A stretch of 64,000 nt of DNA from a bacterium (GTDB taxonomy: Bacteria; Patescibacteriota; Patescibacteriia; UBA2196), in NCBI GenBank assembly GCA_035388785.1, contig DAOOQN010000003.1, positions 16,497-80,496 of the forward strand. The letters are read 5' to 3'. Numbering within the stretch: position 1 is the stretch's first letter; each line of letters opens with the position of its first letter. The notes beneath the pieces were generated by a model, which worked only from the letters and a program-made list of their open reading frames with translations, ran no database searches and was not told where the DNA came from. Made by a program: the position numbers and the translations under genes. Positions 1 to 35,183 of the stretch are shown here, one piece after another.

Positions 1-62
1 TCAGACTGGCTACAAATTGTCTGACTCAAGCAGGAATACAAACGAGCCTGCTGTAAATCATC

Positions 63-1355
63 TCACCGCTCATGATACTCGTCAGCGACGAGATGTTTGA
101 ACCCTCGTGGACTTTGGTCCAAAGGATTCGTTTCGCCACCACCGCGATCCCACGCGGCTTCGATCACGTTGCCGTCTCGATCCCAGTCGAGGTTGAGGTG
201 AAACACCTCTTCCTCACCATCCACCATTTCCACGGCATGGAAATGATGAACGTCAAAAGAAATTGGTTCTCTCCGGAGCCATTGGATAAGCTCCCGAAAA
301 GTTTTTTTGCTTGTCTTCGTCACGTCGAATCTGTGACGTAAAACAAACAAATTATTTGGGATTGGGTCGCCGGGCTGTAGAAAAATTTCCCGTACCCCGC
401 CGTCAACAATAATTTTGACGGCCTTTTTTTGCTTCAGAGTCTCCTCGATAAAAGGAAGAGCCTCTTCGGCAAAACCAAATCCCATCCAGCGGCCGGGGAT
501 GGAGAATCCACCGCCGTGGACATATGGGTCATCACCAAGCCAGTTACCGGAGGTATGGTAGGAAACCTCCACCACCGGCTGATCCACCCATGTTTTTTTC
601 CCGTCAGAGAAGAAGGGGAATTGCGCTTGGATGGCTTCGGCCCATGTAAACGGCAATAAGTCGCCGTTTTCATTTTTTTTGGCCGCCTCGTTCGGATTTA
701 GCATCTGGCCATCAGCCAAGATGTTTTGTCCAAAACGATAGGCTTGAATTTGAAACGTTTCACCCCCGAAATGCAAGAAAGGGTGTACCGACACCAGGTC
801 GTACAGCTTTGATTTTATCTGTACATATCTGGTCAAACCACCCGGTGTGCCGATTTCACCCAAGGCATCACCAAACCTGACAATCTCTTCACAGAGATTC
901 ACCAGGTTTCCGGAGTATTTTCCGGTCACCCCATATTCCCCTTTGAGGTCAAACTTCCCCTCAAGGGTTTCGGGGTTGAACTCGCCGTTTACCACCCTGA
1001 TTCGCAGGTGGTACTCTCCCGAAGAACTGAAGTGGGGCGAGCCACCCTCTTCAGTTTCGGAAAAGCCAGGGATGCAAATATTATATGCAATCCCGACTTC
1101 CCCGACATTATCAGGGCAAAAATCCCTGATTTCGGAGAAAAAGATCTGGGTTGCGAGCCATGTCCGCTCGCTCCCCGGCAAAACAACATCAACTGCGAGA
1201 GATCTCATTTGCTCCCTCAGTTGACTTTCATGCCAGCCCCCATAGGGCTCGACATGAAACAGCTGACCGGCAACGAGCGATTTGCTCGAGTTGCCGAATG
1301 CCCCTTGGTAAAAGGTACCAAAGGGGTCTTTGGTGAAAATTAAATACGCTTGCAT
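63..1355 (-). CDS. hypothetical protein, 430 aa, last gene of the high-GC island; no motif recognised by eye
   Basis: Long minus-strand ORF in the high-GC block. RBS-like GGGAGGAAAT precedes the ATG at 1355. Two hairpins lie downstream of the stop (1-60). Same strand as the MoxR/vWA genes. Confidence 0.45.
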   Translation of the reverse strand: MQAYLIFTKDPFGTFYQGAFGNSSKSLVAGQLFHVEPYGGWHESQLREQMRSLAVDVVLPGSERTWLATQIFFSEIRDFCPDNVGEVGIAYNICIPGFSETEEGGSPHFSSSGEYHLRIRVVNGEFNPETLEGKFDLKGEYGVTGKYSGNLVNLCEEIVRFGDALGEIGTPGGLTRYVQIKSKLYDLVSVHPFLHFGGETFQIQAYRFGQNILADGQMLNPNEAAKKNENGDLLPFTWAEAIQAQFPFFSDGKKTWVDQPVVEVSYHTSGNWLGDDPYVHGGGFSIPGRWMGFGFAEEALPFIEETLKQKKAVKIIVDGGVREIFLQPGDPIPNNLFVLRHRFDVTKTSKKTFRELIQWLRREPISFDVHHFHAVEMVDGEEEVFHLNLDWDRDGNVIEAAWDRGGGETNPLDQSPRGFKHLVADEYHER

Positions 1356-1424
1356 ATTTCCTCCCTCTGCCTCTCGGCAAAAAGATTTTTCCGGAATCCG
1401 TCCGGTACGGTCCGCTTAGCGGGA

Positions 1425-1504
1425 TTTTTTAGTTGGTTCTTTTAATTCCTTTGAATTAGAGATCCTGAAATAAATTCAGGATGACAAACAAACTAAAAGA
1501 ACCA
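1425..1504. repeat. nested inverted repeat: 15-bp arms TAGTTGGTTCTTTTA / TAAAAGAACCAACTA enclosing the 8-bp-arm palindrome ATCCTGAA-ATAAA-TTCAGGAT
   Basis: Read directly from the sequence. It sits in the AT-rich spacer upstream of the 430-aa ORF. The motif TTTAAAGAACTATTTTT nearby (1508-1527) recurs at 2239-2262. Confidence 0.6.
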
Positions 1505-1755
1505 ACTAAAGATTTTTAAAGAACTATTTTTTTATTTTATTTATGCATTTTTAAAAACGCATTTTTTATTTTTTTATTCTTCTAAACCTTCCATAAAAAA
1601 AATATGAAAAGCTTGGAAAAATGGTCAGGAGTTTGTGAAAACTCCCGACCGTAGATTTTTTGAGGCGCTTTTGTGACAGGTGCGCCTCGGTGGGATTTAC
1701 CTGTCGGATAATAGATCGTCAGTTTTAACAGCAAACTGACGTGCATTAGACCATT

Positions 1756-2103
1756 CTACCGGTCCCATTCCGACGGTGGGGTGGTAATCTCCCGCCCGTC
1801 GCATTCGTAGCCGTAGAAACCCTCTTCAGTCGGCCCGAAGAAGTTGGAAACGGCCACCTGAAAGTGCCCCGGTCGGGCTGACCGTGGCTCCTGGGCAAAC
1901 AGGGGCTTCTCCCGCCGGACAAACTTCGTCCAGCGCGTGTAGCCCCTCGCCTCCCAGGCCGTGGGTTTTGAATCGCACAGACACACACCTGCAGCGTGGT
2001 CTGTTCCCCACCAGACCTCGTCGGCGGCATTAAGCGCCGCAACTTCCGCCTCATCCATCACGGAGAGGCGGTACAAGGTCCCAACATAGGTCCCTATTCT
2101 CAT
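1756..2103 (-). CDS. hypothetical protein, 115 aa
   Basis: Minus-strand ORF with RBS AAGGAGAAAC 6 nt before the ATG at 2103. A hairpin GTCAGTTT-N7-AAACTGAC (1721-1743) lies just past its stop. High-GC coding composition. Confidence 0.4.
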   Translation of the reverse strand: MRIGTYVGTLYRLSVMDEAEVAALNAADEVWWGTDHAAGVCLCDSKPTAWEARGYTRWTKFVRREKPLFAQEPRSARPGHFQVAVSNFFGPTEEGFYGYECDGREITTPPSEWDR

Positions 2104-2382
2104 TTTGTTTCTCCTTGTTTTGCCTTGGCAGAATTGCCTCAGCTAATCCAGTATATCCTGGAGGAGAATCTGGTGACGATATTTTGCCACCGCTTCTAAA
2201 TTTTAATTTAATAAATATTTCAAAAGTGGTGACAAAAAATAAATTTTAAAAGAACTATTTTTGTTTTCTTTCATCCGCCTACTGCTGTATTGCGCACCGG
2301 AGAGTTGGTTCACAAATCAAGCTATGAGCGAGTGAAAGAAAGGAAATCAACAAAAAGCGCAGAGTTGATTTCCTTTCCAGTT

Positions 2383-2859
2383 TTACCAGGGGCACCGGTC
2401 AGTGACAGTGCCGTCGATGACCGGTTCGCATCCCCAGATCAGGGCATGGTTCGCCCAAAAATCTGTGGACGCGGGGGTAGCGTTCCGATCCCATGGTTCA
2501 GGTTCGGACAGCTCACCCACGAAGGCGGTGATCAGGATATACCCGCCGACATCATCCGCCCTCTTGAGGATGACGACGACGCTCTGGCACTCTTCCGGTT
2601 GGCGATTGATCACGAACCGGGAGAGGCCAAAGCGCTTTGGCCTCTGGGCAAAGATGATCTGGTCGCCAGGCCCGGTGACGACACAGATCGAGTGACCGAC
2701 GGGGTGGCCAAACTCGACTACCTCCTTGAGAAAGTTGCGCTTGCCAGAGCTGATTTTTCCCAGTGCCTCCGGCAAAACCGCGACAACATCCTCGTGGAGG
2801 TGGGAGTTATGCCTGTCGTAGACAGGCTCGCCACTCCCTAAACTTCCAACCCGATCCAT
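2383..2859 (-). CDS. hypothetical protein, ~158 aa (start taken at the internal Met preceded by GGAGACCAGG)
   Basis: Minus-strand ORF 2383..2919. The internal ATG at 2859 has a strong RBS and carries the shared leader CAAAAACTAACCAGAAAGGAGA. An opposite-strand ORF 2290..2841 overlaps it. Strand chosen by RBS and operon polarity. Confidence 0.35.
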   Translation of the reverse strand: MDRVGSLGSGEPVYDRHNSHLHEDVVAVLPEALGKISSGKRNFLKEVVEFGHPVGHSICVVTGPGDQIIFAQRPKRFGLSRFVINRQPEECQSVVVILKRADDVGGYILITAFVGELSEPEPWDRNATPASTDFWANHALIWGCEPVIDGTVTDRCPW

Positions 2860-2919
2860 CCTGGTCTCCTTTCTGGTTAGTTTTTGTTTTGGTTTATTTA
2901 AATTCCTCTCTAAAATCAT

Positions 2920-3694
2920 CTAATAAAATATTAAATAATTTTAGAGAACAGAGAACGTGAGAGTTGCATTAACACGTTCTCTTAAAGTAAAGCGCGGGGG
3001 ATCCCGCATGGTACACCTCCTTTTTTCTTGCCACCCGCCTAGATATCAGCCAATTATTTGGCTGATACCCAGAACTCCCGGGACCAAGCCGAGAAAAGAC
3101 AACAAGGTGGATTTGACCCTCGCCTGCACCGAAAAGGGAAATTGCAGGAACAGCCCCAGACCACAATTCAAAGGGCTGTCGTTGACTTCTTTCCGCCAGT
3201 GCCAGACAGATATTGCGAAGTCAAAAGATATCTGTCTGGCGCACGGTGGGATGTGAATTGACCAGGACATTGAGCGCCGCTCCCAAACGGTCTTTTTTTA
3301 TCTCAATGTCGTCTGAATAGCGATTAGTAATTTCGGCTCGTCCGTACCAGAACCGAATATAATCCACTATCCTTGGCGTTTTATTAGCGCGCCACCGCCA
3401 GCTTTTTCGGAGCAACCCGTCTGCCCATCCCAAAGGATTTTTGTCGCCTCGGCAGCTAGCGCCACAAGCTTATGACCGCAAAAAAATACAGCAGAGCGGT
3501 ACTTGTGGTTGCGCAGGTTTTTGGCTATGCCACCATGGGTTTTATAGCCAAGGCGGTGATTTATTCATTACACACTCTCCTTTCTGGTTGGTGTTTGTTT
3601 TTATATTTATTTCTTAAAAACCATCAATTAAAAATTAATAGCTTTTAAGATGAGACGAGCAAGTAATGTGCATTACCGCTCATCTCAAATAGTG
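2920..3694 (-). pseudogene. probable degraded ORF between the vWA gene and the 158-aa gene: intact leader/RBS, an 8-codon mini-ORF (MNKSPPWL, 3542..3568), then several out-of-frame ORF fragments (70 aa and 74 aa)
   Basis: The leader AAACACCAACCAGAAAGGAGAG (3577-3600, minus strand) duplicates the leader of the 2859 start. Reading frames break repeatedly. Hairpins at 3042-3068, 3201-3238 and 3522-3548. Confidence 0.3.
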
Positions 3695-5101
3695 CTAGAA
3701 CTTCTCGACCCCGACTCCGCCCGTGCTTTGGGCGAATTTGACGAGTCCGGGATTGGCGACTTCCATCGCGAATCCATGAACTCGAGTGCCAGGGATTTCC
3801 GACGCCTTCAATCCGTTGATCGAGGTGTCCTCGTCGGTCAGGACTACGATCTCGGGGCGATACAGAGCTTCGCCAGCCTTGATCTTTTCCTCGATCATCT
3901 TATGCGCAGACCGGACAGCCGCGGCAATATCTGTGCCGCCACCAGAAAAGTTTTTACTCGTGAACTTTTTGATGAGCTCGCGAGCTTCTTCTGACGTGGC
4001 GGCATGATCTGCTTTGGTCAGGTCGGTGTCAAAGACACTCAGCCAGACTTCAGCATCACCGGATATTACTGCCTTGAGGCGGTTCATCACTACCCCAGAG
4101 GCCTTCCAGTGTTTTTTGCCGTTCATTGATCCAGAGCCGTCGAGCAGGATGAAAATCGCCTGCTTTTTTTCATTCCTCGTGACGCGCTCACGGACCGGCA
4201 ACTGTCCCGTTACGGCCTTATAAAGAAAAAAGGACGGATTTTCCTGCCGCAATGCCCAGGCCGTTTTGGGCACGCGTTGGAGCTCACCGAGGTGGCGGAT
4301 GGGTCTTTGGTGGACCTCATCACCAGTCGGGTCAGGTTCGATCTCACGACGCTTTCTGACCTGCATCTTGGTGAATTGATCCAACTTGCGGGAGATATCC
4401 AGCATGACCCGCTTATCTGACCCGGCGACCAGGTCTTCGGCAATTTTCAGGCTTTTCAGTCCTTGGTTGCCTTGACGCTGGCCGTCTTGCTCCTTTACCA
4501 CGTCATGGTTTTCTCCTTGCGGGTCGAGCATGTCCAGCTCTTCCTCGCTCAAGGAGTCCACCATTTCCATGGTGTCCTGGAGCTCTTCCGCCACTCCCTC
4601 GGGGCGGTCGGTCTCGGAAAAAATCGGCAAGGGCTCACCACCCTCGCCGCCACCCTGCCCACCTTGCTTTTTTGACAAAAGCTTTAGCAGGCTCATGGTT
4701 TGCTCTAAGGGGGAGCCGCCCGGAAACTGGTTGAGGTCAATCGCCTGCAAAAAATCGCAGACGTTTTGGTGATACCTCAATTGCTCCCGGGTTCTGCCTT
4801 CGACCGCCTCGAAGCGGTTCTTGGTCGCGAACTCTTTCTTCTTCCCCTGGCTGTCGCGGCCGACATATTTCCAGTAGCCAGAGGAGTCAGCGGCGGGCAA
4901 ACTTTCTTCCACCTTTTGCCGCACCACCTGTTGATAGTGCGAAGGGGGATTGATCGTCCCACCCGCTGCCAAGTTGCAGAGGTCGGCCACTAGATCTCTA
5001 GAGAAGCCGCTCAAGCCGACCTTTTGAGCTGCTTCTTTCATCTCCTCCCCAGAAGGAGGAATGTACGTCGCCGGGGGCGACGTGCGGAATGTGTAATGCA
5101 T
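3695..5101 (-). CDS. von Willebrand factor A domain protein (MIDAS motif), ~468 aa; C-terminal vWA domain preceded by a long acidic low-complexity N-terminal region
   Basis: MIDAS DxSxS in ILLDGSGSM, the conserved Thr in GGGTDIAAAV and the distal Asp in IVVLTDEDT. Start chosen at the Met preceded by AAAAAAGGAGG (ATG at 5101). A hairpin plus AT tract follows the stop (3620-3690). Confidence 0.75.
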   Translation of the reverse strand: MHYTFRTSPPATYIPPSGEEMKEAAQKVGLSGFSRDLVADLCNLAAGGTINPPSHYQQVVRQKVEESLPAADSSGYWKYVGRDSQGKKKEFATKNRFEAVEGRTREQLRYHQNVCDFLQAIDLNQFPGGSPLEQTMSLLKLLSKKQGGQGGGEGGEPLPIFSETDRPEGVAEELQDTMEMVDSLSEEELDMLDPQGENHDVVKEQDGQRQGNQGLKSLKIAEDLVAGSDKRVMLDISRKLDQFTKMQVRKRREIEPDPTGDEVHQRPIRHLGELQRVPKTAWALRQENPSFFLYKAVTGQLPVRERVTRNEKKQAIFILLDGSGSMNGKKHWKASGVVMNRLKAVISGDAEVWLSVFDTDLTKADHAATSEEARELIKKFTSKNFSGGGTDIAAAVRSAHKMIEEKIKAGEALYRPEIVVLTDEDTSINGLKASEIPGTRVHGFAMEVANPGLVKFAQSTGGVGVEKF

Positions 5102-5123
5102 TGTCGCCTCCTTTTTTGGGGGG

Positions 5124-6209
5124 TTAAATTCTTGTCGCATTCAAGGCCGCAGTTTGGGCCTCGGTGATCTTTTGGGCCACCGATTCCCGCAACTGCTTCC
5201 GACGCTCGGACAGGCCATCGGTGATCTTCAAACCGGCTACCCTGTCCTGTAACCCGGTCAGCCGTTTTGCCATCTGCAGGAGCTTGATTGGCGACGAAGA
5301 AATCTCGTCCCACTCCTGCATCAGGCCACGCATTTCGGCCTCGGCCTCGGCCAGCCGTTTTTCAGCGGCGGCGCGCTCATAAGCGGCCTCGAGTTCCTGA
5401 CGGATATTCTCCGCCAGTCCTTCAAGACCATCAATGAACTTCAGGTCGATCAGGTCTTCCTTCTCGACCTTCTGTCCACCGCGCAGAGCGGCCGCGGATT
5501 TCACGACCGACAAAGCATACACCGCCGACCGCGGGGAAATCGGCTGATCACCCTCGCCCGCCTTGGCCATTATCTCGGCCAGGACTCCCATGGAGCCGTT
5601 CAGGTCTGCCCCAGACAAAAACGGGGTGACCTTATTAAACAGGGCCAGATAGTCCTTAGCCGAATATGACTCCCACTTTATATTGAGCTGAAGTGGAAAT
5701 CTTTCGATCAGGGCTTTGGAGGCGGGTCCCAGATCCTCAATTTCTTGGGGATCTTTGTTGGTGATCGCGATGATCACTTTCGTTTTCATCGCGAAGACCT
5801 GTGACCCTTTCCGCAGTTTGCGGGCGGTCAGGGTATCCTTTAGAGCGAGGAGAACCGACGCTGGCGCGTCGAACATTTCCTCGAAAACCGCGAACGGTTT
5901 TGCGAGGAAACTGTTCTCCGGGTGGTACAGGAGGACTTTGTCGCGGTCCAGGGCCGCAAAATCCAAACCACCCCAGAGAGTAGCCTCATCCATTCCCTCA
6001 CCAAAACTCTGGACAAACATATCCAGCTCCTCGGCGACGACGGCCAGGGCCGCTTGAACCATTTCGCTCTTGCCGTGACCCCCGGGTCCCCAGAGGAGCA
6101 CGTTCTTACCCGACTCGATGGCGAGCGCGAGGACCCGGGCAATTTCCTCGCACCTGACGAACCGCTCGGACAGAGCGGTCAATATTTTTTCATACAAATT
6201 GGTGGCCAT
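5124..6209 (-). CDS. AAA+ ATPase of the MoxR/RavA-like family, 361 aa, with a C-terminal coiled-coil
   Basis: Walker A LLWGPGGHGKSE. Walker B-like hydrophobic stretch DKVLLYHPE. RBS AAAGGAGG before the ATG at 6209. Immediately upstream of and on the same strand as the vWA gene (the classic MoxR-vWA pairing). Confidence 0.65.
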   Translation of the reverse strand: MATNLYEKILTALSERFVRCEEIARVLALAIESGKNVLLWGPGGHGKSEMVQAALAVVAEELDMFVQSFGEGMDEATLWGGLDFAALDRDKVLLYHPENSFLAKPFAVFEEMFDAPASVLLALKDTLTARKLRKGSQVFAMKTKVIIAITNKDPQEIEDLGPASKALIERFPLQLNIKWESYSAKDYLALFNKVTPFLSGADLNGSMGVLAEIMAKAGEGDQPISPRSAVYALSVVKSAAALRGGQKVEKEDLIDLKFIDGLEGLAENIRQELEAAYERAAAEKRLAEAEAEMRGLMQEWDEISSSPIKLLQMAKRLTGLQDRVAGLKITDGLSERRKQLRESVAQKITEAQTAALNATRI

Positions 6210-6737
6210 TGCTGGCCTCCTTTCTTTTCTTTCTTTGAGTTTGAGCGCTTGGCCTCGACTTCATTAGGAGCCGATCCAACCCTGCACTCCTCGCAGTCTT
6301 GTTGGTCGCGAATCGCCCAGGAATTATTTGCGCCTATCCACAAATTTCCTGATTTTCTTTCCAAGCCAGATTAGGTGGCTGTTATTAAATTCCTCTATTA
6401 AGGTTTCGAAGATGTTTTTCTCTCTCCTCGAAACCGGTTAGAGGAATTTATTTTATTTTTTCTCCTAATTTAATATTCAGTTTTCAACGAACGCGCTTTT
6501 CTCTTTCTCTATAAAATTCCCCTTTGACGGGGACAAAATTTCCTATTCAATTTGTTAAGAAATTTTAGAAAGATATAGCGAGAAAGTTGTTTATTTAGCT
6601 ACAAGCATGGCAGCTAAATAAACAAATATTCCAGCTGTATCACATAGGCATTTTAATTTTAACTTCTCTCCTCTTTTGGTTTTTAGGCCAAAGGCCTATT
6701 TAGAAAATTTCCAATTTCAAATTTCAAATTTCTAAAC

Positions 6738-27693: not shown

Positions 27694-27924
27694 CTACAAT
27701 TTGAAATTTTCTTCATCCACGGTTTCAAATCGGCCTCTGGTCTCTTGGACCTTCTTTTCAATTATAGTAAAAATTTTGCTTACATCATCTTCGTTATAAT
27801 CATAAAGATTCTGGTTGGCACAGTTACTAAGTACTTTTAGAGCCTTAAGTACATTAATAGTACGAGATTCAGCAGATTTTTTAAATCTTTCTTTTTTTGT
27901 TTTTTCATTTTCGAACAAATCCAT
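27694..27924 (-). CDS. hypothetical small protein (~76 aa, start taken at the internal Met)
   Basis: ORF 27694..27981. The N-terminal 19 codons are low-complexity. Adjacent to the DnaA-box/palindrome region. Confidence 0.35.
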   Translation of the reverse strand: MDLFENEKTKKERFKKSAESRTINVLKALKVLSNCANQNLYDYNEDDVSKIFTIIEKKVQETRGRFETVDEENFKL

Positions 27925-28142
27925 ATTTTTTGTATATATTGTATATAGTCTATGTATATGTATATACATTAAGTATAGCATATATATTTAGAATGTGTAA
28001 ACTTAAATATCTTGTTTTAGTTATTTTTAAAAATTACAACCCAGACTTCTTAGTAAAATCAAAGGCGTCTAAAATAGATTCTGTAGAAAATTTTTGATTA
28101 TAAAATCAACTTAGGCATGCTTTTATCACCCAAAAGCATGTT

Positions 28143-28430
28143 TTTGTATGTCTTATACACATATTGTCTACATTAGTGTAGACAAAAGACCATATTTTAA
28201 AATTGTTCCACATGGAACAATTTTAAAATTATCAAAGTTATACCCTAAAATGGCCTTTTTTGACTACTTATACACACTTTGTCTACACTAGTCTAGACAT
28301 CCGAACACTTCTTCACTTTTATACATATGACTAAGAAAATAATTTGGCTAAAAATGGACAAAAAACGGTATATATTATAAGTATGTGTATCAAGGATGGG
28401 TATATTTTGTATTGTTCCATGTGGAACAAA
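28143..28430. promoter_or_regulatory. cluster of DnaA-box and palindromic operator-like sites: two perfect TTATACACA boxes (28153-28161, 28268-28276), each followed by a TGTCTACA-N4-TGTAGACA-type palindrome (28165-28184, 28280-28299); two TTGTTCCA-NN-TGGAACAA palindromes (28203-28220, 28402-28419)
   Basis: Read directly. Sits in a 720-bp gene-free, very AT-rich region between the small ORF and the tRNA cluster. Confidence 0.45.
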
Positions 28431-28679
28431 TAAATTTCATCACTAAATAGCATAAAATATATCTAAAACGGTTTTCCAAAAAAAGCTGATTAAAATTTAA
28501 AACTACCTATTTTTTACTTTTATGGCTAATATTAGATAAAATACACTTTTACACGGAATAAACCTGCTTGGGACTTAAAAACGTACTTTTTTTGTGTTTA
28601 TGTTTTGTATTAGCCAAAAGTTGTATTATATCAAAATTAGACAGATTTTTGGTGATTATGTCAAATTGTGTTGTAATAT

Positions 28680-28708
28680 AAAAACCACTCTGCTTCGGTG
28701 GTTTTTAT
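28680..28708. terminator. bidirectional terminator AAAACCAC-N9-GTGGTTTT with flanking T and A runs, downstream of the minus-strand tRNA cluster
   Basis: aaaaccactctgcttcggtggtttttat. Confidence 0.55.
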
Positions 28709-28711
28709 ATT

Positions 28712-28784
28712 TGGACCCTAGGGGGATCGAACCCCTCACCTCTTCCATGCCATGGAAGCGCTCTACCAAATGAGCTAAGGGCCC
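28712..28784 (-). tRNA. tRNA-Ala (anticodon GGC)
   Basis: Manual cloverleaf with the G3:U70 Ala identity pair. Anticodon loop ATGGCAT. CCA not encoded. Confidence 0.75.
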
Positions 28785-28844
28785 ACATAACTATGGTTAG
28801 ATTTTAATAACAGAATATCAAAATAAAATAAATTTATCAAATTT

Positions 28845-28915
28845 TGGACTTAGCGAGAATCGAACTCGCGTCTCCGCAATGCGAATGCGGCATATTACCA
28901 CTATACTATAAGCCC
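28845..28915 (-). tRNA. tRNA-Ala (anticodon CGC)
   Basis: Manual cloverleaf: acceptor GGGCTTA with G3:U70. Anticodon stem CCGCA/TGCGG, loop TTCGCAT. Confidence 0.75.
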
Positions 28916-28955
28916 AAACAAAAGAATGGGTTTGCTTAATTACCTGCCATCACCC

Positions 28956-29037
28956 ATGCCCCCGACAGGAATTGGACCTATATCTAAGGCTTAGGAGTCC
29001 CTTGTTCTATCCATTGAACTACGGGGGCTTGGGTTAT
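28956..29037 (-). tRNA. tRNA, probably Arg (anticodon CCU); weak anticodon stem and atypical T-loop TCCAATT
   Basis: Acceptor GCCCCCG/CGGGGGC. Canonical D-arm GTTCAATGGATAGAAC. Anticodon loop CTCCTAA by manual folding. Isotype needs covariance-model confirmation. Confidence 0.5.
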
Positions 29038-29188
29038 AGCAGGGGTGCGCGTACATTAAACCAAACGTTTAAAAGTATTCTATAAAAAATACACTTCTTT
29101 ATATTTATCTTAACAATTTATAGGTATCTTTACAACTTTAAAAAATACAGTTAAGCTTACCTATATAAATAATTAATTTACAACACCT

Positions 29189-29542
29189 ATGTCTAAAGAA
29201 TTTAAAGATGTGGAAACAATTATTGGCTCCACCGTTAAAATTGAAGGTAACTTTAAAGGCGACGGTGATGTGGTGGTAGAGGGCGAGGTGGCAGGTAAAC
29301 TATCCACCAAAAAAAACTTAACTGTGGGAGAAAATGCCAAGATCGCAGCTGATGTGGAGGCGATCAACGCTTTGGTGGCCGGACAAATTGTGGGAAATTT
29401 AAAAATAACTGAAAGTTTGGAACTAACTGCCACTGCTAAAATAACCGGGGATGTATCAGCTAAGATTTTAACAGTAGCCACGGGTGCTCGTCTAGATGGA
29501 AAAATTAGCATGGGGGACTCTGTTTTAATAGAAAAAGAATAA
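29189..29542 (+). CDS. bactofilin-family cytoskeletal protein
   Basis: Repetitive beta-helical pattern (KIEGNFKGDGDVVVEGEVAGKL...ITGDVSAKIL) typical of DUF583/bactofilin. 117 aa. Confidence 0.75.
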   Translation: MSKEFKDVETIIGSTVKIEGNFKGDGDVVVEGEVAGKLSTKKNLTVGENAKIAADVEAINALVAGQIVGNLKITESLELTATAKITGDVSAKILTVATGARLDGKISMGDSVLIEKE

Positions 29543-32251: not shown

Positions 32252-32450
32252 ATTGTTTAAATTTTTATTATTCTGTGTACTATATTATAAGTAATATTTG
32301 TTTTTTTGTCAATTTATTCTCTATTTTTAATTATTTTTTATCTTTTTTTATTACTATACACATTAAATCCACTTCTTATACACTTTACCCCTGTTTTTAC
32401 TTATAGATAATCGTGCTAAAATATAAATACAAAGACTAAACAAAACAAAA
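32252..32450. other. candidate oriC segment 1 (rpmH-dnaA spacer): AT-rich, DnaA-box-like TTATACACT
   Basis: Classical origin gene order rnpA-rpmH | dnaA-dnaN. One 8/9 DnaA box at about 32376-32384. Confidence 0.35.
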
Positions 32451-33821
32451 ATGACTAACGAACAACTTTGGCAAGCTATTTTGGGTGAATTAGAATTAAC
32501 TTTAAGTAAAGCTAATTTTACAACCTGGTTTAAAAGTACTTTTATTATTTCACAAGAAGCTAATTGTATTATTGTGGGTGTACCGAATGGTTTTACTAAA
32601 ACTTGGTTGGAAAATAAATATCAAAATGAGATTATTACAGCTTTAAAACACATTACTAATAACACCATTAACCAAGTTTTTTATAAAGTTGAAATAAATA
32701 ATAAGCCAACAAATTTAGCTAATCTAAAGGAAAAAATAAATAATATTAATCATAATTCAAATACAGAAGAGAAGGAAGAAAATTATCCCAAAAATCAATT
32801 TGGTTTAAATCCAAAATACACTTTTGATAAATTTATTGTGGGAAAGAATAATGAATTAGCCCACGCAGCCGCCAAAGCAGTGTCCAAGGCTCCTGGTAAT
32901 GCTTATAACCCACTATATATCTATGGGCAAGCTGGTTTGGGTAAAACACACCTCTTACAAGCTATAGGGCATGAAATACTTAATAATAAACCAAATACAA
33001 AATTACTTTATTTAACATGTGAAAAGTTTACTAACGAGTTTATTAACACACTTAGAACAAATCGAGCAAATGAATTTCAGCAGAAATATCGCAATATTGA
33101 TGTTTTAATTATTGATGATATACAATTTATAGCCGGTAAAGAACAAACTCAAGAACAATTTTTTCACACTTTTAATGATCTTTATCAAAAAGATAAACAA
33201 TTAATTATTTCTTCAGATAGACCCCCTAAAGCTATTCAAAATTTAGAACAAAGATTACAATCACGCTTTGAGTGGGGGATGACGGCTGACATTTCAGCAC
33301 CTGATTATGAAACTCGGGTGGCTATTTTAGAGCAAAAAGCTATAGATAAAAATTTTAGTTTAGAAAAAAATATTATAAATTATCTAGCAGAAAATATACA
33401 GAGTAATATTAGAGAATTAGAGGGTGCTTTAAATCATTTATATGCTCGTTTTCAATTAAATAACCATAAATTAACATTAGACGAAGTAAAAAGTATTTTA
33501 CAAAGCATTAATACTATTATTCCAAAAAGTGCTCTTTCTAATAAATCTATTATTCAAACTGTATCTGAATTTTTTAACATTTCCACAGCTGAAATAGTTG
33601 GTACATCGCGTAAAAAAGAATTAGTCGTACCTCGACAAATTGCCATGTATTTAATGCGTGAGGAATTAGAAACTTCATTTATTAAAATTGGACATGAATT
33701 GGGTGACCGTGATCACACCACAGCTATACATGCTTATACTAAAATCAAAGAAGAACTTAATAATGATGGAAAAATTAAACAAAACATCTTACTTATTAAA
33801 CAAAAACTATATAATAAATAG
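32451..33821 (+). CDS. dnaA: chromosomal replication initiator DnaA
   Basis: Walker A GQAGLGKTHLLQAIG, sensor and box VII, C-terminal DNA-binding domain. 456 aa. Confidence 0.95.
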   Translation: MTNEQLWQAILGELELTLSKANFTTWFKSTFIISQEANCIIVGVPNGFTKTWLENKYQNEIITALKHITNNTINQVFYKVEINNKPTNLANLKEKINNINHNSNTEEKEENYPKNQFGLNPKYTFDKFIVGKNNELAHAAAKAVSKAPGNAYNPLYIYGQAGLGKTHLLQAIGHEILNNKPNTKLLYLTCEKFTNEFINTLRTNRANEFQQKYRNIDVLIIDDIQFIAGKEQTQEQFFHTFNDLYQKDKQLIISSDRPPKAIQNLEQRLQSRFEWGMTADISAPDYETRVAILEQKAIDKNFSLEKNIINYLAENIQSNIRELEGALNHLYARFQLNNHKLTLDEVKSILQSINTIIPKSALSNKSIIQTVSEFFNISTAEIVGTSRKKELVVPRQIAMYLMREELETSFIKIGHELGDRDHTTAIHAYTKIKEELNNDGKIKQNILLIKQKLYNK

Positions 33822-34079
33822 TGTATAAATAGGTGTATAAAAAAGCATAAATTAGCATTTTATCAACTTAAAACAAAAAAATAAAAAGAATTATTTTATA
33901 TTCACACATTATTTTAAATATAAATCTATAGTATCCACCTTAGGTGTTAGTTAAAATATGGTCTCTAGATGAAATAAAATCAATCTGTGGGGCAAAGTAC
34001 ATTTTTATACACTTTTACACCCTCATTACTATGTATTATTAAAGTATTTAAATATTCTAATATTATAATATAAAAAAAT
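33822..34079. other. candidate oriC segment 2 (dnaA-dnaN spacer): inverted DnaA-box-like repeats AGTGTATAA and GGTGTATAAAA versus TTTTTATACAC, plus GTATCCACC
   Basis: Boxes with 8/9 matches to TTATNCACA / TGTGNATAA at about 33822-33840 and 33993-34004. Very AT-rich. Confidence 0.4.
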
Positions 34080-35183
34080 ATGAAAATAATTTGTAAACAA
34101 GAAAATTTAATTTTGGGCTTACTAAAGGTTTCTCACCTAACTGGTAAAAATTTTAATTTACCTATTTTAAATAATATATTAATTAAAGCTGAGGGTGGGG
34201 TAATAGAGCTTTCGGCTACTAATTTAGAAATGGGGGTTAGGACGATTATAAGAGGTAAAATAGAACAAGAGGGAAAAATAACCATGCCCGCTAAAATAAT
34301 TACAGATTATATAAGTTTAATTAATAGTGATAAAAATATAACTTTAGAAACACAAGAAGGGGAGGTGTTGATAAACAGTGATGGATGGCAGACGAAAATT
34401 AAAACTAATCCAGCTGAGGATTATCCGTTAACTCCAGAAGTAAAGGGTTTAAAAAAATATCATATTAAAACTATTGATTTAAAAAATAGTTTAAATAATG
34501 TAATTTTTGCAACTTCTTATGATGAAACTAAACCAGAATTAACCGGAGTTTTGTTTTGGTTTAAAGATAAAAATTTGATTTTAGCGGCTACTAATAGTTA
34601 TCGTTTAGCTGAAAAGAAGATAGAATTAGAGCAGGAAGTAAAAACAGAAGAGAAAATAATCATTCCCTTAAAATCAATGCAAGAATTAGTACGTATTATT
34701 AATGACACAACTAAGGAATATTTTACACTTGATTTTGAAGAAAATCAGATTAAATTTGATTTTGAAGAAACTATAATAATTTCACGTCTAATTGAGGGTG
34801 AATATCCTGATTATCAACAAATTATACCGCGTGAATTTGGTATTGAAATTGAAATTGATAATACAGAGTTAATCAAAGCAATTAAAGCGGCAAGTTTATT
34901 TACAAAAAGCGGTATTTTTGATGTGACTTTGGAATTTATTAAAGATGTGGTTATTGTTCGATCAATTAATTCACAATTAGGAGAAAATGTTATTAAAATA
35001 AATATAAATCATAAAGGTGGAGATGAAACTGTAATTTTTAATTATAAATTTTTATTAGACGGTTTAAATAATATAAACTCCTTAAAAACTAAAATTTTAA
35101 TTAACTCACCTGTAAATCCGATAGTATTTAAGTCTACTACGAATAATGATTTTATGTACCTAGTGATGCCAATTAGACAGTAA
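34080..35183 (+). CDS. dnaN: DNA polymerase III beta sliding clamp
   Basis: Three-domain clamp pattern. Position immediately after dnaA. 367 aa. Confidence 0.9.
   Translation: MKIICKQENLILGLLKVSHLTGKNFNLPILNNILIKAEGGVIELSATNLEMGVRTIIRGKIEQEGKITMPAKIITDYISLINSDKNITLETQEGEVLINSDGWQTKIKTNPAEDYPLTPEVKGLKKYHIKTIDLKNSLNNVIFATSYDETKPELTGVLFWFKDKNLILAATNSYRLAEKKIELEQEVKTEEKIIIPLKSMQELVRIINDTTKEYFTLDFEENQIKFDFEETIIISRLIEGEYPDYQQIIPREFGIEIEIDNTELIKAIKAASLFTKSGIFDVTLEFIKDVVIVRSINSQLGENVIKININHKGGDETVIFNYKFLLDGLNNINSLKTKILINSPVNPIVFKSTTNNDFMYLVMPIRQ

What the first reader, a model, noticed from the sequence alone, without database searches (positions are those of the whole stretch)
27982..28700. DnaA-box plus palindrome cluster 4 kb from dnaA: alternative oriC or DnaA-titration/operator region
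Seen: two perfect DnaA boxes TTATACACA (28153-28161, 28268-28276). Each is immediately followed by a 20-bp palindrome of the form TGTCTACA-N4-TGTAGACA (the second copy is imperfect around an ACTAGT core). Two further 18-bp palindromes TTGTTCCA-NN-TGGAACAA lie at 28203-28220 and 28402-28419. The first of these extends to a 26-bp perfect palindrome. Additional 8/9 boxes are at about 28316 and 28385. All sit in a 720-bp AT-rich gene-free region next to a tRNA cluster. By contrast, the canonical rpmH-dnaA and dnaA-dnaN spacers carry only 8/9 boxes. Inference: this may be the functional origin (or a DnaA-regulated locus), with the palindromes serving as binding sites for a dimeric regulator or replication-associated protein.
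Basis: partly seen in the sequence, partly recalled or inferred. Interest (0 to 1): 0.55.

Follow-up and report, generated by a model that had tools for sequence, protein, structure and literature searches.

The report
parS centromere with DnaA-box/operator modules
This gene-free stretch is most likely the chromosome's centromere-like ParB-loading region, carrying two conserved DnaA boxes that are each fused to the operator of an uncharacterised small regulator; it is probably not the replication origin, which maps next to dnaA about 5.7 kb away.

Summary
Two TTATACACA boxes, each followed after 3 nt by a 20-bp palindrome (palA), and two 18-bp palindromes (palB) occur only here in 64 kb. One palB coordinate was off by 10.

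palB is parS. Relatives carry TGTTCCACGTGGAACA or the canonical TGTTTCACGTGAAACA at the same locus.

palA is the probable operator of a conserved Patescibacteria HTH_17 ("excisionase-family") protein. It lies between that gene and a divergent ECF-type sigma/DUF5667 pair in 30 of 119 metagenome hits. Palindromes of the same TGTC-N12-GACA type lie there in 5 of 5 loci chosen through the protein.

The module DnaA box–N3–palA–parS beside tRNA-Ala/tRNA-Arg(CCT) is conserved across many Patescibacteria.

The origin reading is not supported:
- Strand-corrected third-codon-position GC skew puts the switch in the dnaA–dnaN spacer; the finding's spacer is 21.6 lnL worse.
- The dnaA–dnaN spacer has conserved tandem boxes followed by AT-rich triplet runs.
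- The palA-linked boxes have no unwinding element.

Closest precedent: DnaA boxes in the Caulobacter parS centromere. ParB and the HTH_17 gene could not be checked in this genome. This is a new variant of a known kind, of moderate interest.

The parts
28153..28161 (+). DnaA box 1 (TTATACACA), perfect match to TTATNCACA
   Evidence: Conserved at the same position in L009, with variants at the same register in L040, L036, L126, L183 and L195.
28165..28184 (.). palA-1: perfect 20-bp palindrome TGTCTACATTAGTGTAGACA, probable operator of an HTH_17 regulator
   Evidence: The same motif lies in the sigma/HTH_17 intergenic region of 30 of 119 metagenome loci. The same or a same-type motif lies there in 5 of 5 loci chosen through the protein.
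28194..28229 (.). parS-1: core TGTTCCACATGGAACA at 28204-28219, inside a 36-bp palindrome with 17-nt arms
   Evidence: (I7). L009 has TGTTCCACGTGGAACA at the orthologous position. The B. subtilis parS is TGTTCCACGTGAAACA (PMC4333373).
28268..28276 (+). DnaA box 2 (TTATACACA)
   Evidence: conserved in L009.
28280..28299 (.). palA-2: TGTCTACACTAGTCTAGACA, one mismatched pair
   Evidence: The identical 20-mer occurs in L040 at 4721. In L009 a parS follows this site; in the window that parS has decayed.
28412..28429 (.). parS-2: TTGTTCCATGTGGAACAA (core 28413-28428), the reverse complement of parS-1
   Evidence: (I3); conserved in L009 at 5960.
28113..28147 (+). Hairpin followed by a T-run (terminator-like), directly upstream of DnaA box 1
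   Evidence: By my reading of the sequences, L009 has a hairpin of different sequence (CCTCTA...TAGAGG) plus a T-run at the same place, so the structure is kept rather than the sequence. A T-run after a short G+C patch also precedes box 2 and the boxes of L009 and L040.
28525..28536 (.). palC-like site GCTAATATTAGA (family GCTAA-N2-TTAGC). Related half-sites GGCTAA at 28346 and TTAGCCAAAA at 28610
   Evidence: The same palindrome recurs in the orthologous regions of L040, L119, L198, L096, L106 and L104. It ends 16 nt before palA in L119, L209 and L212. Binder unknown.
28635..28689 (-). 55-nt block 100% identical to L009. It contains a promoter-like TTGACA-N16-TCTAAT on the minus strand (28664-28637)
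   Evidence: Alignment columns 711-765. The hexamers are read directly from the sequence. The consensus scan lists a different, overlapping minus-strand site, 28682-28655. Function unexplained.
28675..28711 (-). Intrinsic terminator hairpin of the tRNA operon (14-nt arms)
   Evidence: I22. It lies immediately 3' of tRNA-Ala(GGC).
28711..29028 (-). tRNA-Ala(GGC), tRNA-Ala(CGC) and tRNA-Arg(CCT); conserved neighbours of the parS/palA cluster
   Evidence: The same tRNA genes flank the cluster in L009, L040, L036, L021, L035, L033, L126, L096, L106, L104, L158, L138, L198, L183, L197, L174 and L179.
34005..34079 (+). Outside the finding, for contrast. Probable unwinding module of oriC: TTATACACT, overlapping weak box TTTTACACC, short G+C spacer, T-centred triplets, then an AT-rich run up to the dnaN start
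   Evidence: The module is aligned in 6 genomes. Triplet runs follow the last + box in most relatives. The GC3 change point falls at 33821..34080.

Best explanation
The 27925-28710 spacer is the origin-proximal centromere-like region of a Patescibacteria chromosome, combined with regulatory protein-binding sites. It is not the site of origin unwinding.

Shown:
- It holds two parS-type palindromes.
- It holds two copies of a composite module: T-run, DnaA box, 3 bp, 20-bp palindrome palA, followed in the ancestral state by a parS.
- The module and its tRNA-Ala/tRNA-Arg(CCT) neighbours are conserved in many Patescibacteria.
- palA is the same sequence that sits in front of a conserved about 95-aa HTH_17 gene, which is divergent from an ECF-type sigma factor and a DUF5667 protein.

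Inferred:
- ParB dimers load at the parS sites and organise and segregate the origin region.
- The HTH_17 protein binds palA as a dimer, both at its own promoter (autoregulation) and here.
- DnaA binds the two high-affinity boxes. The fixed 3-bp gap puts DnaA and the proximal palA half-site about one helical turn apart, so the two proteins must either touch (cooperate) or exclude each other.
- The boxes therefore bring DnaA to the centromere under control of that regulator, as DnaA boxes do in the Caulobacter parS region, or they titrate and concentrate DnaA near oriC.
- Duplex opening occurs in the dnaA-dnaN spacer about 5.7 kb away.
For: 1. parS identity.
- Window sites are TGTTCCACATGGAACA and its reverse complement.
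- Orthologous sites in L009, L033 and L035 are TGTTCCACGTGGAACA; L040 has six copies.
- More distant genomes with the same locus layout carry the canonical TGTTTCACGTGAAACA: three copies in L198 at GC 0.52, and also in L104, L106 and L041.
- Published B. subtilis parS: TGTTCCACGTGAAACA, optimal TGTTTCACGTGAAACA (PMC4333373).

2. palA as an HTH_17 operator.
- 30 of 119 palA-bearing metagenome loci, spanning GC 0.30-0.60, have palA between an HTH_17 gene (PF12728, E 5e-10 to 1e-8) and a sigma-70 r2/r4 ECF-type gene with DUF5667.
- All 5 loci fetched through the protein rather than through the motif have a TGTC-N12-GACA palindrome in that spacer. Three are palA proper (L210, L214, L216); L209 and L212 carry divergent variants.
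- One MAG (CAYSSY01) has the identical 20-mer TGTCTACACTAGTGTAGACA both 24 bp upstream of its HTH_17 start (L216) and in its tRNA-adjacent region 3.4 kb from dnaA (L036).

3. The DnaA boxes are real.
- A box with at most 1 mismatch lies exactly 12 nt before palA at 14 sites in 8 genomes. The fifth base varies A/C/T, with single changes elsewhere in some copies.
- palA sites at HTH_17 promoters lack it, so the box is a separate element.
- Perfect TTATCCACA boxes flank palA in L096, L106, L118, L198 and L204.

4. Not the unwinding site.
- The GC3 change point is at dnaA-dnaN; the finding is 21.6 lnL worse. Relatives agree.
- No T-centred triplet run or AT-rich element follows the palA-linked boxes.
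- The dnaA-dnaN module is conserved.
- The tRNA genes and the rpmH operon point away from dnaA, so they are co-directional with forks coming from dnaA.

5. Precedent. Caulobacter DnaA binds DnaA boxes in parS, 8 kb from Cori (Mera 2014, as reviewed in PMC6399470).
Against: - No parB or parA gene was found in the window or in any fetched Patescibacteria locus (motif scans only). ParB in this genome is assumed, not shown.
- The HTH_17 gene is not in the window or within 10 kb of dnaA in relatives. I could not find it for this genome.
- The window parS copies differ from the B. subtilis parS in parB (TGTTCCACGTGAAACA) at 2 of 16 positions, including the central CG.
- The raw cumulative GC skew has its global minimum at 29187, next to the finding. 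L021, L036 and L158 also have raw minima near their parS/palA region.
- One lineage (L096) has 5 perfect and 7 imperfect DnaA boxes, nearly all co-oriented, in this locus. That looks origin-like.
- No binding has been measured for any of the three proteins.
Confidence: 0.6

Rival explanations
1. The region is the functional replication origin, or one essential part of a multipartite oriC that loops to the dnaA-flanking box clusters. DnaA bound at the two strong boxes nucleates initiation, and the HTH_17 protein acts as an origin-bound regulator, as CtrA, Spo0A or MtrA do.
For: - The only two perfect TTATACACA boxes, and 2 of the 4 perfect TTATNCACA matches in 64 kb, are here.
- They are conserved.
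- The raw cumulative GC-skew minimum is at 29187. Raw minima lie near the equivalent region in L021, L036 and L158.
- L096 has 12 boxes in this locus.
- In B. subtilis, distal boxes act through DNA looping (PMC6669920).
- It is a large conserved non-coding region in a compact genome.
Against: - The GC3 strand-corrected switch is 21.6 lnL worse here than at dnaA-dnaN. It is also clearly worse in L009, L035, L040 and L033.
- There are only two conserved boxes, each abutting a duplex-binding palindrome. No triplet run or AT-rich element follows them.
- GC is 0.26, against 0.19-0.20 for the dnaA-flanking spacers.
- With an origin here, the tRNA genes and the rpmH operon would be head-on to replication.
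- The tested looping distances in B. subtilis were a few hundred bp, not 4-6 kb.
Confidence: 0.15
2. The region is mainly a transcription-control region. The palA and DnaA-box pairs are operators of promoters for unannotated small RNAs, or for the neighbouring 76-aa gene. The parS-like palindromes double as terminators or insulators.
For: - At HTH_17 genes, the right half of palA (T[TAG]GACA) acts as a -35-like element: in L097, TTGACA-N18-TATAAT.
- A + strand site TTGACT-N18-TACACT overlaps box 2 and palA-2.
- A conserved hairpin plus T-run sits at 28113-28147, and the extended parS-1 scores as a minus-strand terminator.
- A 55-nt fully conserved block contains TTGACA-N16-TCTAAT on the minus strand.
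Against: - Promoter-like sites are no more frequent than in shuffles: 9 found against 9.2 expected.
- No Rfam family matches, even at E up to 1.
- Sequence between the motifs is poorly conserved against L009, so there is no RNA-gene-like block.
- Downstream of palA-1 the spacing to the nearest -10-like hexamer is 13 nt.
- The 76-aa gene is absent from most relatives that keep the module.
- Canonical parS copies in distant genomes argue for ParB binding.
Confidence: 0.15
3. The region is a remnant of a mobile element or plasmid-like partition/replication cassette (iterons plus parS) integrated next to a tRNA gene.
For: - It is adjacent to tRNA genes.
- HTH_17 is the 'excisionase' family.
- It has palindromes and repeats.
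Against: - The same locus, in the same gene context, is conserved across genomes whose DnaA proteins are only 55-94% identical, and in more distant Patescibacteria.
- No integrase, Rep or transposase gene is nearby.
- GC content is not atypical for intergenic DNA.
Confidence: 0.03

Closest known systems
Chromosomal parS/ParB (Spo0J) centromere sites clustered near oriC (B. subtilis and many bacteria)
   Same: - A 16-bp palindrome of the TGTTNCACGTGNAACA type.
- Several copies within a few kb of dnaA.
- Conserved in relatives, with canonical TGTTTCACGTGAAACA in distant members of the same locus family.
   Different: - The window copies have CA/TG, and L040 has TA, in place of the central CG.
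- The sites are interleaved with two other conserved motifs and tied to tRNA-Ala/tRNA-Arg genes.
- ParB itself was not found in the data available.
DnaA boxes inside the Caulobacter crescentus parS centromere (Mera, Kalogeraki and Shapiro 2014)
   Same: - DnaA boxes sit next to parS, a few kb from the origin: 8 kb in Caulobacter, about 4-6 kb here.
- The initiator is recruited to the centromere rather than to the unwinding site (PMC6399470).
   Different: - Here each box is fused at a fixed 3-bp distance to the operator of a third protein.
- Nothing is known about DnaA-dependent segregation in Patescibacteria.
- Binding is untested.
Regulator sites abutting DnaA boxes in origins (CtrA in Cori, Spo0A boxes in B. 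subtilis oriC, MtrA, AdpA)
   Same: A sequence-specific regulator site lies directly beside or overlapping a DnaA box, so the regulator can gate DnaA binding. CtrA is cited from PMC6399470; the others are from my own knowledge.
   Different: - The regulator here is a small excisionase-like HTH_17 protein, not a response regulator.
- The locus is probably not the unwinding origin.
Non-origin DnaA-box loci: E. coli datA, DARS1/2; B. subtilis DnaA-box clusters
   Same: A few high-affinity boxes outside the unwinding region, next to a site for an accessory DNA-binding protein (IHF or Fis there, the palA binder here). This comparison is from my own knowledge.
   Different: - There are only two boxes.
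- There is no evidence for titration or nucleotide exchange.
- The accessory factor is unrelated.
V. cholerae chromosome II rctA/parS2 locus
   Same: A centromere locus that binds both ParB and the replication initiator, and serves as a platform for crosstalk between replication and partition (PMC6399470).
   Different: The initiator there is RctB, not DnaA, and it is a secondary chromosome of plasmid origin.
B. subtilis incC basal unwinding system (DnaA-box 6/7, DnaA-trios, AT-rich DNA between dnaA and dnaN)
   Same: This resembles the window's dnaA-dnaN spacer (34005-34079) and its relatives, not the finding.
   Different: - The palA-linked boxes have neither trios nor an AT-rich element downstream.
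- In the window itself the triplet run is imperfect: TCA TTA CTA.

Membership tests
parS (ParB-binding centromere site) | 16-bp palindrome matching TGTTNCACGTGAAACA | tested here: met
   - Window: TGTTCCACATGGAACA, 14/16 to the B. subtilis parS in parB.
- Relatives at the orthologous position: TGTTCCACGTGGAACA, 15/16.
- Distant genomes with the same locus layout: perfect TGTTTCACGTGAAACA.

parS (ParB-binding centromere site) | Several copies clustered in the origin-proximal part of the chromosome | tested here: met
   - There are 2 copies in 64 kb, both here, 4.0-4.2 kb from the dnaA start.
- Relatives have 2-6 copies in the same place.
parS (ParB-binding centromere site) | A cognate ParB (and usually ParA) encoded in the genome | not testable with these tools
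   - Only 64 kb of the genome is available.
- No GERRxRA motif or deviant Walker A motif was found in the window or in the fetched Patescibacteria loci.
parS (ParB-binding centromere site) | ParB binding and spreading in vivo or in vitro | not testable with these tools
   An experiment is needed.
oriC (DnaA-dependent chromosomal origin, unwinding region) | Cluster of DnaA boxes | tested here: inconclusive
   - Here: 2 perfect conserved boxes plus 2 non-conserved 8/9 boxes.
- The dnaA-flanking spacers have 2 and 4 8/9 boxes, and 3-6 boxes in the closer relatives.
oriC (DnaA-dependent chromosomal origin, unwinding region) | Correctly oriented box followed within 16 nt by DnaA-trios and an AT-rich unwinding element | tested here: not met
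   - No run of at least 3 T-centred triplets follows 28153 or 28268; palA occupies that position.
- The strand convention for the trios is from my recollection of the B. subtilis sequence.
oriC (DnaA-dependent chromosomal origin, unwinding region) | Strand-composition (GC skew) switch at the site | tested here: not met
   - The GC3 strand-corrected change point is at 33821..34080; the finding's spacer is -21.6 lnL.
- The raw cumulative minimum at 29187 is only 20 counts lower than at 33-34 kb.
oriC (DnaA-dependent chromosomal origin, unwinding region) | Supports DnaA-dependent unwinding or autonomous replication | not testable with these tools
   An experiment is needed.
Non-origin DnaA-box locus (Caulobacter parS boxes, datA/DARS, DnaA-box clusters) | Consensus DnaA boxes conserved at an orthologous locus outside the unwinding region | tested here: met
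   14 sites in 8 genomes at a fixed register. The locus lies away from the skew switch.
Non-origin DnaA-box locus (Caulobacter parS boxes, datA/DARS, DnaA-box clusters) | DnaA occupancy and an effect on segregation or on DnaA activity | not testable with these tools
   An experiment is needed.
Operator of the Patescibacteria HTH_17 regulator (palA) | The same 20-bp palindrome (TGTC-N12-GACA, consensus TGTCTACACTAGTGTAGACA) lies in the promoter region of the regulator gene | tested here: met
   - 30 of 119 motif-selected loci.
- All 5 protein-selected loci have a palindrome of this type in that spacer: 3 are palA proper, 2 are divergent TGTC-N12-GACA variants.
- Pfam PF12728 is above its cut-off.
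Operator of the Patescibacteria HTH_17 regulator (palA) | Regulator gene and the origin-proximal palA sites present in one genome | tested here: inconclusive
   - Met for the related MAG CAYSSY01 (L036 plus L216).
- The window's own genome could not be searched. The gene is not in the 64 kb.
Operator of the Patescibacteria HTH_17 regulator (palA) | Direct binding of the protein to palA | not testable with these tools
   - An experiment is needed.
- The adjacent ECF-type sigma factor is a formal alternative reader of the motif. It is disfavoured because the site is a perfect palindrome.

The most novel reading that the evidence does not exclude
The about 95-aa HTH_17 protein, encoded next to an ECF-type sigma/anti-sigma-like pair, would be a Patescibacteria-specific cell-cycle regulator. 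By binding palA one helical turn from a high-affinity DnaA box and next to parS, it would gate DnaA access at the centromere. That would couple an envelope or host-contact signal to chromosome segregation or replication initiation. In the stronger form, this tRNA-linked locus is a required second component of the origin. This would be the first proposed replication/segregation control circuit for the Candidate Phyla Radiation.
Probability: 0.2. Interest if true: 0.75.

Novelty: new variant of a known kind. Interest (0 to 1): 0.45.

Why it matters
I found no published work on how Patescibacteria (CPR) start replication or segregate their chromosomes. The literature searches returned no study of oriC, parS or ParB in this group beyond a GC-skew plot with box-like repeats.

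This locus gives a concrete, widely conserved piece of cis-acting DNA with three recognisable readers: ParB, DnaA and a small HTH_17 protein. The fixed geometry between the DnaA box and palA invites direct biochemical tests.

It also extends the Caulobacter observation that the initiator is recruited to the centromere to a very distant lineage. That would suggest DnaA-centromere coupling is older or more widespread than assumed.

Practically, parS plus palA plus tRNA-Ala/tRNA-Arg(CCT) is a useful landmark for the origin-proximal region in fragmented CPR MAGs. The analysis also warns that raw GC-skew minima a few kb from dnaA can be artefacts of gene orientation.

Tried and rejected
1. Known RNA genes. 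Rfam found only tRNAs at gathering thresholds and nothing credible in 27850-29250 at E up to 1.

2. A small protein gene in the spacer. The 34-codon frame at 27993-28097 loses its ATG in L009 and is poorly conserved.

3. The neighbouring 76-aa gene as the palA binder. It has no Pfam match and is absent from most relatives that keep the module.

4. TrpR-like (L036) and TrmB-like (L040, L036, L126) neighbours as binders. They are not consistently present. The window's TrmB homologue is 20 kb away.

5. Raw GC skew and per-gene whole-sequence skew as an origin locator. These were equivocal at this scale because gene orientation and amino-acid composition dominate. I replaced them with a third-position, strand-corrected change-point test.

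6. Reading the TTATACACA as part of the palA operator. Rejected because palA sites at HTH_17 promoters lack it.

7. Reading the palA halves as degenerate DnaA boxes. They match only 5 of 8 specified positions.

8. Looking for parB or parA by motif in the window and in all loci. None was found outside Firmicutes loci.

9. Finding the HTH_17 gene of this very genome through nine protein look-ups. I reached other MAGs only.

10. A solved-structure relative of the HTH_17 family. The only hit is a non-significant match to 4j2n 'Gp37', E 0.42.

11. The wider palA regulon. The remaining 62 motif hits are a mix of in-ORF chance matches and scattered intergenic sites, and I did not pursue them.
Full report
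**Source and setting.** The window comes from a Patescibacteria MAG (GCA_964505965.1, contig CAZDJX010000003.1). The closest genome in the collection is UBA2196, with DnaA 94% identical. Further relatives have 76, 70 and about 55-61% identical DnaA and include Kuenenbacteria and Kerfeldbacteria MAGs.

The gene order around the finding is:
- trxB(-) and a 76-aa ORF(-)
- the spacer
- tRNA-Ala(GGC), tRNA-Ala(CGC) and tRNA-Arg(CCT), all (-)
- bactofilin(+) and a DAGK-like gene(+)
- PRC, yidC, yidD, rnpA and rpmH, all (-)
- dnaA(+) and dnaN(+)
- PBP1(-)

This order is kept in many relatives.

**The observation.**
- The two TTATACACA boxes are at 28153 and 28268.
- The two TGTCTACA-N4-TGTAGACA palindromes (palA) are at 28165 and 28280.
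- The two TTGTTCCA-NN-TGGAACAA palindromes (palB) are at 28203 and 28412. The second was mis-stated by 10 nt.
- The two 8/9 boxes are at 28319 and 28384.

palA and palB occur nowhere else in 64 kb. About 0.01 palA matches are expected by chance. The box count alone is not significant. The two boxes with their palA partners form a 32-bp direct repeat 115 bp apart. The two 8/9 boxes are not conserved in UBA2196 and are probably chance.

**palB is parS.** In UBA2196, L033 and L035 the same positions read TGTTCCACGTGGAACA. L040 has six copies with a CATATG centre. The B. subtilis parS inside parB is TGTTCCACGTGAAACA, and the optimal site is TGTTTCACGTGAAACA (PMC4333373).

More distant Patescibacteria contigs share the locus layout and carry the perfect canonical site: three copies in L198 at GC 0.52, and also L104, L106 and L041. 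The window copies keep the half-site TGTTCCA but have CA/TG at the centre.

I could not show a parB gene. None lies in the window or in the fetched Patescibacteria loci. The paper searches returned nothing on ParB in this group.

**palA is the probable operator of an HTH_17 regulator.** I scanned metagenome contigs for TGTCTACAYTRRTSTNGACA and got 119 loci.
- In 30 loci the motif lies between two divergent genes. One encodes an about 95-aa protein with an HTH_17 domain (PF12728). The other encodes a sigma-70 region 2/4 ECF-type factor, followed by a DUF5667 protein. These loci span GC 0.30 to 0.60.
- The protein family is highly conserved, and its sources name it 'excisionase family DNA binding protein' or 'helix-turn-helix domain-containing protein [Patescibacteria group bacterium]'.
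- Five loci chosen through the protein, not the motif, all have a TGTC-N12-GACA palindrome in that spacer. Three are palA proper and two are divergent variants.
- One MAG (CAYSSY01) has the identical TGTCTACACTAGTGTAGACA in two places: 24 bp before its HTH_17 start codon (L216), and in its tRNA-adjacent region 3.4 kb from dnaA (L036).

A dimeric HTH protein reading a perfect palindrome is the simplest interpretation. The sigma factor is a less likely reader. The gene is not in the window, and I could not locate it for this genome.

**A conserved module.** Another 27 metagenome loci, and the relatives L009, L040, L036 and L021, have palA together with parS and/or perfect DnaA boxes. Where the contig extends far enough, tRNA-Ala and tRNA-Arg(CCT) are there too.

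In the window's clade, a box with at most one mismatch lies exactly 12 nt before palA at 14 sites in 8 genomes. The variants are TTATACACA, TTATTCACA, TTATCCACA, TTATCTACA, TTATCCTCA, TTTTCCACA, TTATTAACA and ATATTCACA. Much of this variation falls on the degenerate fifth base of TTATNCACA, as expected for a real DnaA box.

palA sites at HTH_17 promoters have no such box. A parS follows palA within 7-32 bp in most cases. In the window, the parS after palA-2 has decayed.

A third palindrome, GCTAA-N2-TTAGC (palC), recurs in these regions. It ends 16 nt before palA in L119, L209 and L212. The window has GCTAATATTAGA at 28525. Its binder is unknown.

**Is it the origin?** The raw cumulative G-C count has its minimum at 29187. 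That is only 20 counts below the value at 33-34 kb, and gene orientation drives the local shape.

I therefore used third codon positions converted to the + strand and fitted a single change point.
- The best position is the dnaA-dnaN spacer (33821..34080).
- The rpmH-dnaA spacer is 3.2 lnL worse.
- The finding's spacer is 21.6 lnL worse.
- Genes between 29.2 and 33.8 kb have p(G) = 0.48, close to the left arm (0.44) and unlike the right arm (0.67).

The same test disfavours the centromere-like site in L009 (-19.4), L035 (-35, where parS is 8 kb from dnaA), L040 (-7.9) and L033 (-8.2). It is ambiguous in L021 (-1.8) and L036 (-1.5).

The dnaA-dnaN spacer is more AT-rich (GC 0.20 against 0.26). 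It also has a module aligned in six genomes: a + oriented box, a second box abutting it, a short G+C spacer, then TTA/CTA-type triplets and AT-rich DNA up to dnaN. [quoted passage not shown] The strand convention for the trios is from my own recollection of that sequence. In the window the run is imperfect (TCA TTA CTA).

The palA-linked boxes have no such run, because the palindrome occupies that space. The tRNA genes and the rpmH operon are co-directional with forks coming from dnaA.

Against this, L096 has 5 perfect and 7 imperfect boxes, nearly all co-oriented, in its tRNA/palA locus. So a lineage-specific origin role cannot be excluded.

**Mechanism proposed.**
- Shown: the motifs, their conservation, their fixed geometry, and the link between palA and the HTH_17 gene.
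- Inferred: ParB loads at parS. DnaA occupies the two boxes. The HTH_17 dimer occupies palA about one helical turn from the box, so it either helps or blocks DnaA there.

The nearest precedent is the Caulobacter centromere. There, DnaA binds boxes in parS 8 kb from Cori and enables segregation (Mera 2014, reviewed in PMC6399470). Alternatives are a datA/DARS-like DnaA control locus, or a distal box set that concentrates DnaA near oriC by looping.

**Verdict.** The origin interpretation is not supported. The 'binding sites for dimeric proteins' and 'DnaA-related locus' readings are supported.

parS clusters and centromere DnaA boxes are already known kinds. The new elements are the fixed fusion of a DnaA box to the operator of an uncharacterised regulator linked to an ECF-type sigma gene, and its conservation with tRNA-Ala/tRNA-Arg across Patescibacteria.

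Noticed in passing
window 1-6500: A block with GC 0.49-0.56, against about 0.35 elsewhere, encodes a bpMoxR-type AAA protein (5124-6209, -) and a VWA/CoxE-like protein (3695-5140, -). This is a MoxR-vWA type module. It is possibly a horizontally acquired island or a binning or assembly chimera.
   Followed up: partly
window 28635-28689: A 55-nt block is 100% identical to UBA2196, although the rest of the spacer is about 71% identical. It contains TTGACA-N16-TCTAAT on the minus strand, just after the tRNA terminator, and a facing TAGACA on the plus strand. No transcript or function is assigned.
   Followed up: partly
window 28113-28147; L009 5660-5700: A hairpin plus T-run lies directly upstream of DnaA box 1. 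UBA2196 has a different stem sequence at the same place, so the structure is kept rather than the sequence. It may insulate the module from transcription of the divergent promoter region.
   Followed up: partly
window 28346, 28525-28536, 28610; L119 140-960; L040 4532, 4801; L198 4220; L096 1733-1750: A third conserved palindrome, GCTAA-N2-TTAGC (palC), often followed by AAAA. It ends 16 nt before palA in L119 and in two sigma/HTH_17 spacers (L209, L212). It also occurs just upstream of dnaA in L040 (9614). The binder is unknown.
   Followed up: partly
L096 1059-2146: One Patescibacteria contig (GC 0.37) has 5 perfect TTATCCACA and 7 one-mismatch boxes, nearly all in one orientation. They lie among tRNA-Ala(CGC), tRNA-Arg(CCT), palA and palC. 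This is an origin-like box cluster at the locus that elsewhere holds only 1-2 boxes.
   Followed up: partly
L040 4880-5040; L021 5790-5990; L126 1010-1170; L119 100-260 and 780-1010: Direct repeats of about 70-80 bp lie between the parS/palA cluster and the tRNA terminator in several relatives. Each unit has an A/T-run, a 'GTGTTTTT' patch and a TTAGCCAAAA/palC element. In L119 the units alternate with palA-like sites. The window has only vestiges.
   Followed up: no
L035 1822-2102; L033 1749-1974; L198 4411-4857: parS copies bracket individual tRNA genes (tRNA-Ala in L035 and L033, tRNA-Ala plus tRNA-Arg in L198). The tRNA genes therefore sit inside the centromere cluster, not merely beside it.
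   Followed up: no
L208/L209 3299-3892; L212 3627-4268; L218 1026-1661; L219-L223: A recO gene lies immediately downstream of, and convergent with, the HTH_17 gene in several unrelated Patescibacteria contigs.
   Followed up: no
window 32354-32384: Two co-oriented 8/9 DnaA boxes lie 22 bp apart, about 70-100 bp upstream of dnaA. This pair recurs with 22-bp or 11-bp spacing in L009, L019, L033, L016, L020 and L022. It fits dnaA autoregulation or the upstream half of a bipartite origin.
   Followed up: partly
L002-L004 (Logan assemblies of the same strain): Independent short-read assemblies of this strain all break inside tRNA-Ala(GGC), about 786 bp beyond the 95-aa ORF. The spacer is therefore often the end of a contig in public data.
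   Followed up: no
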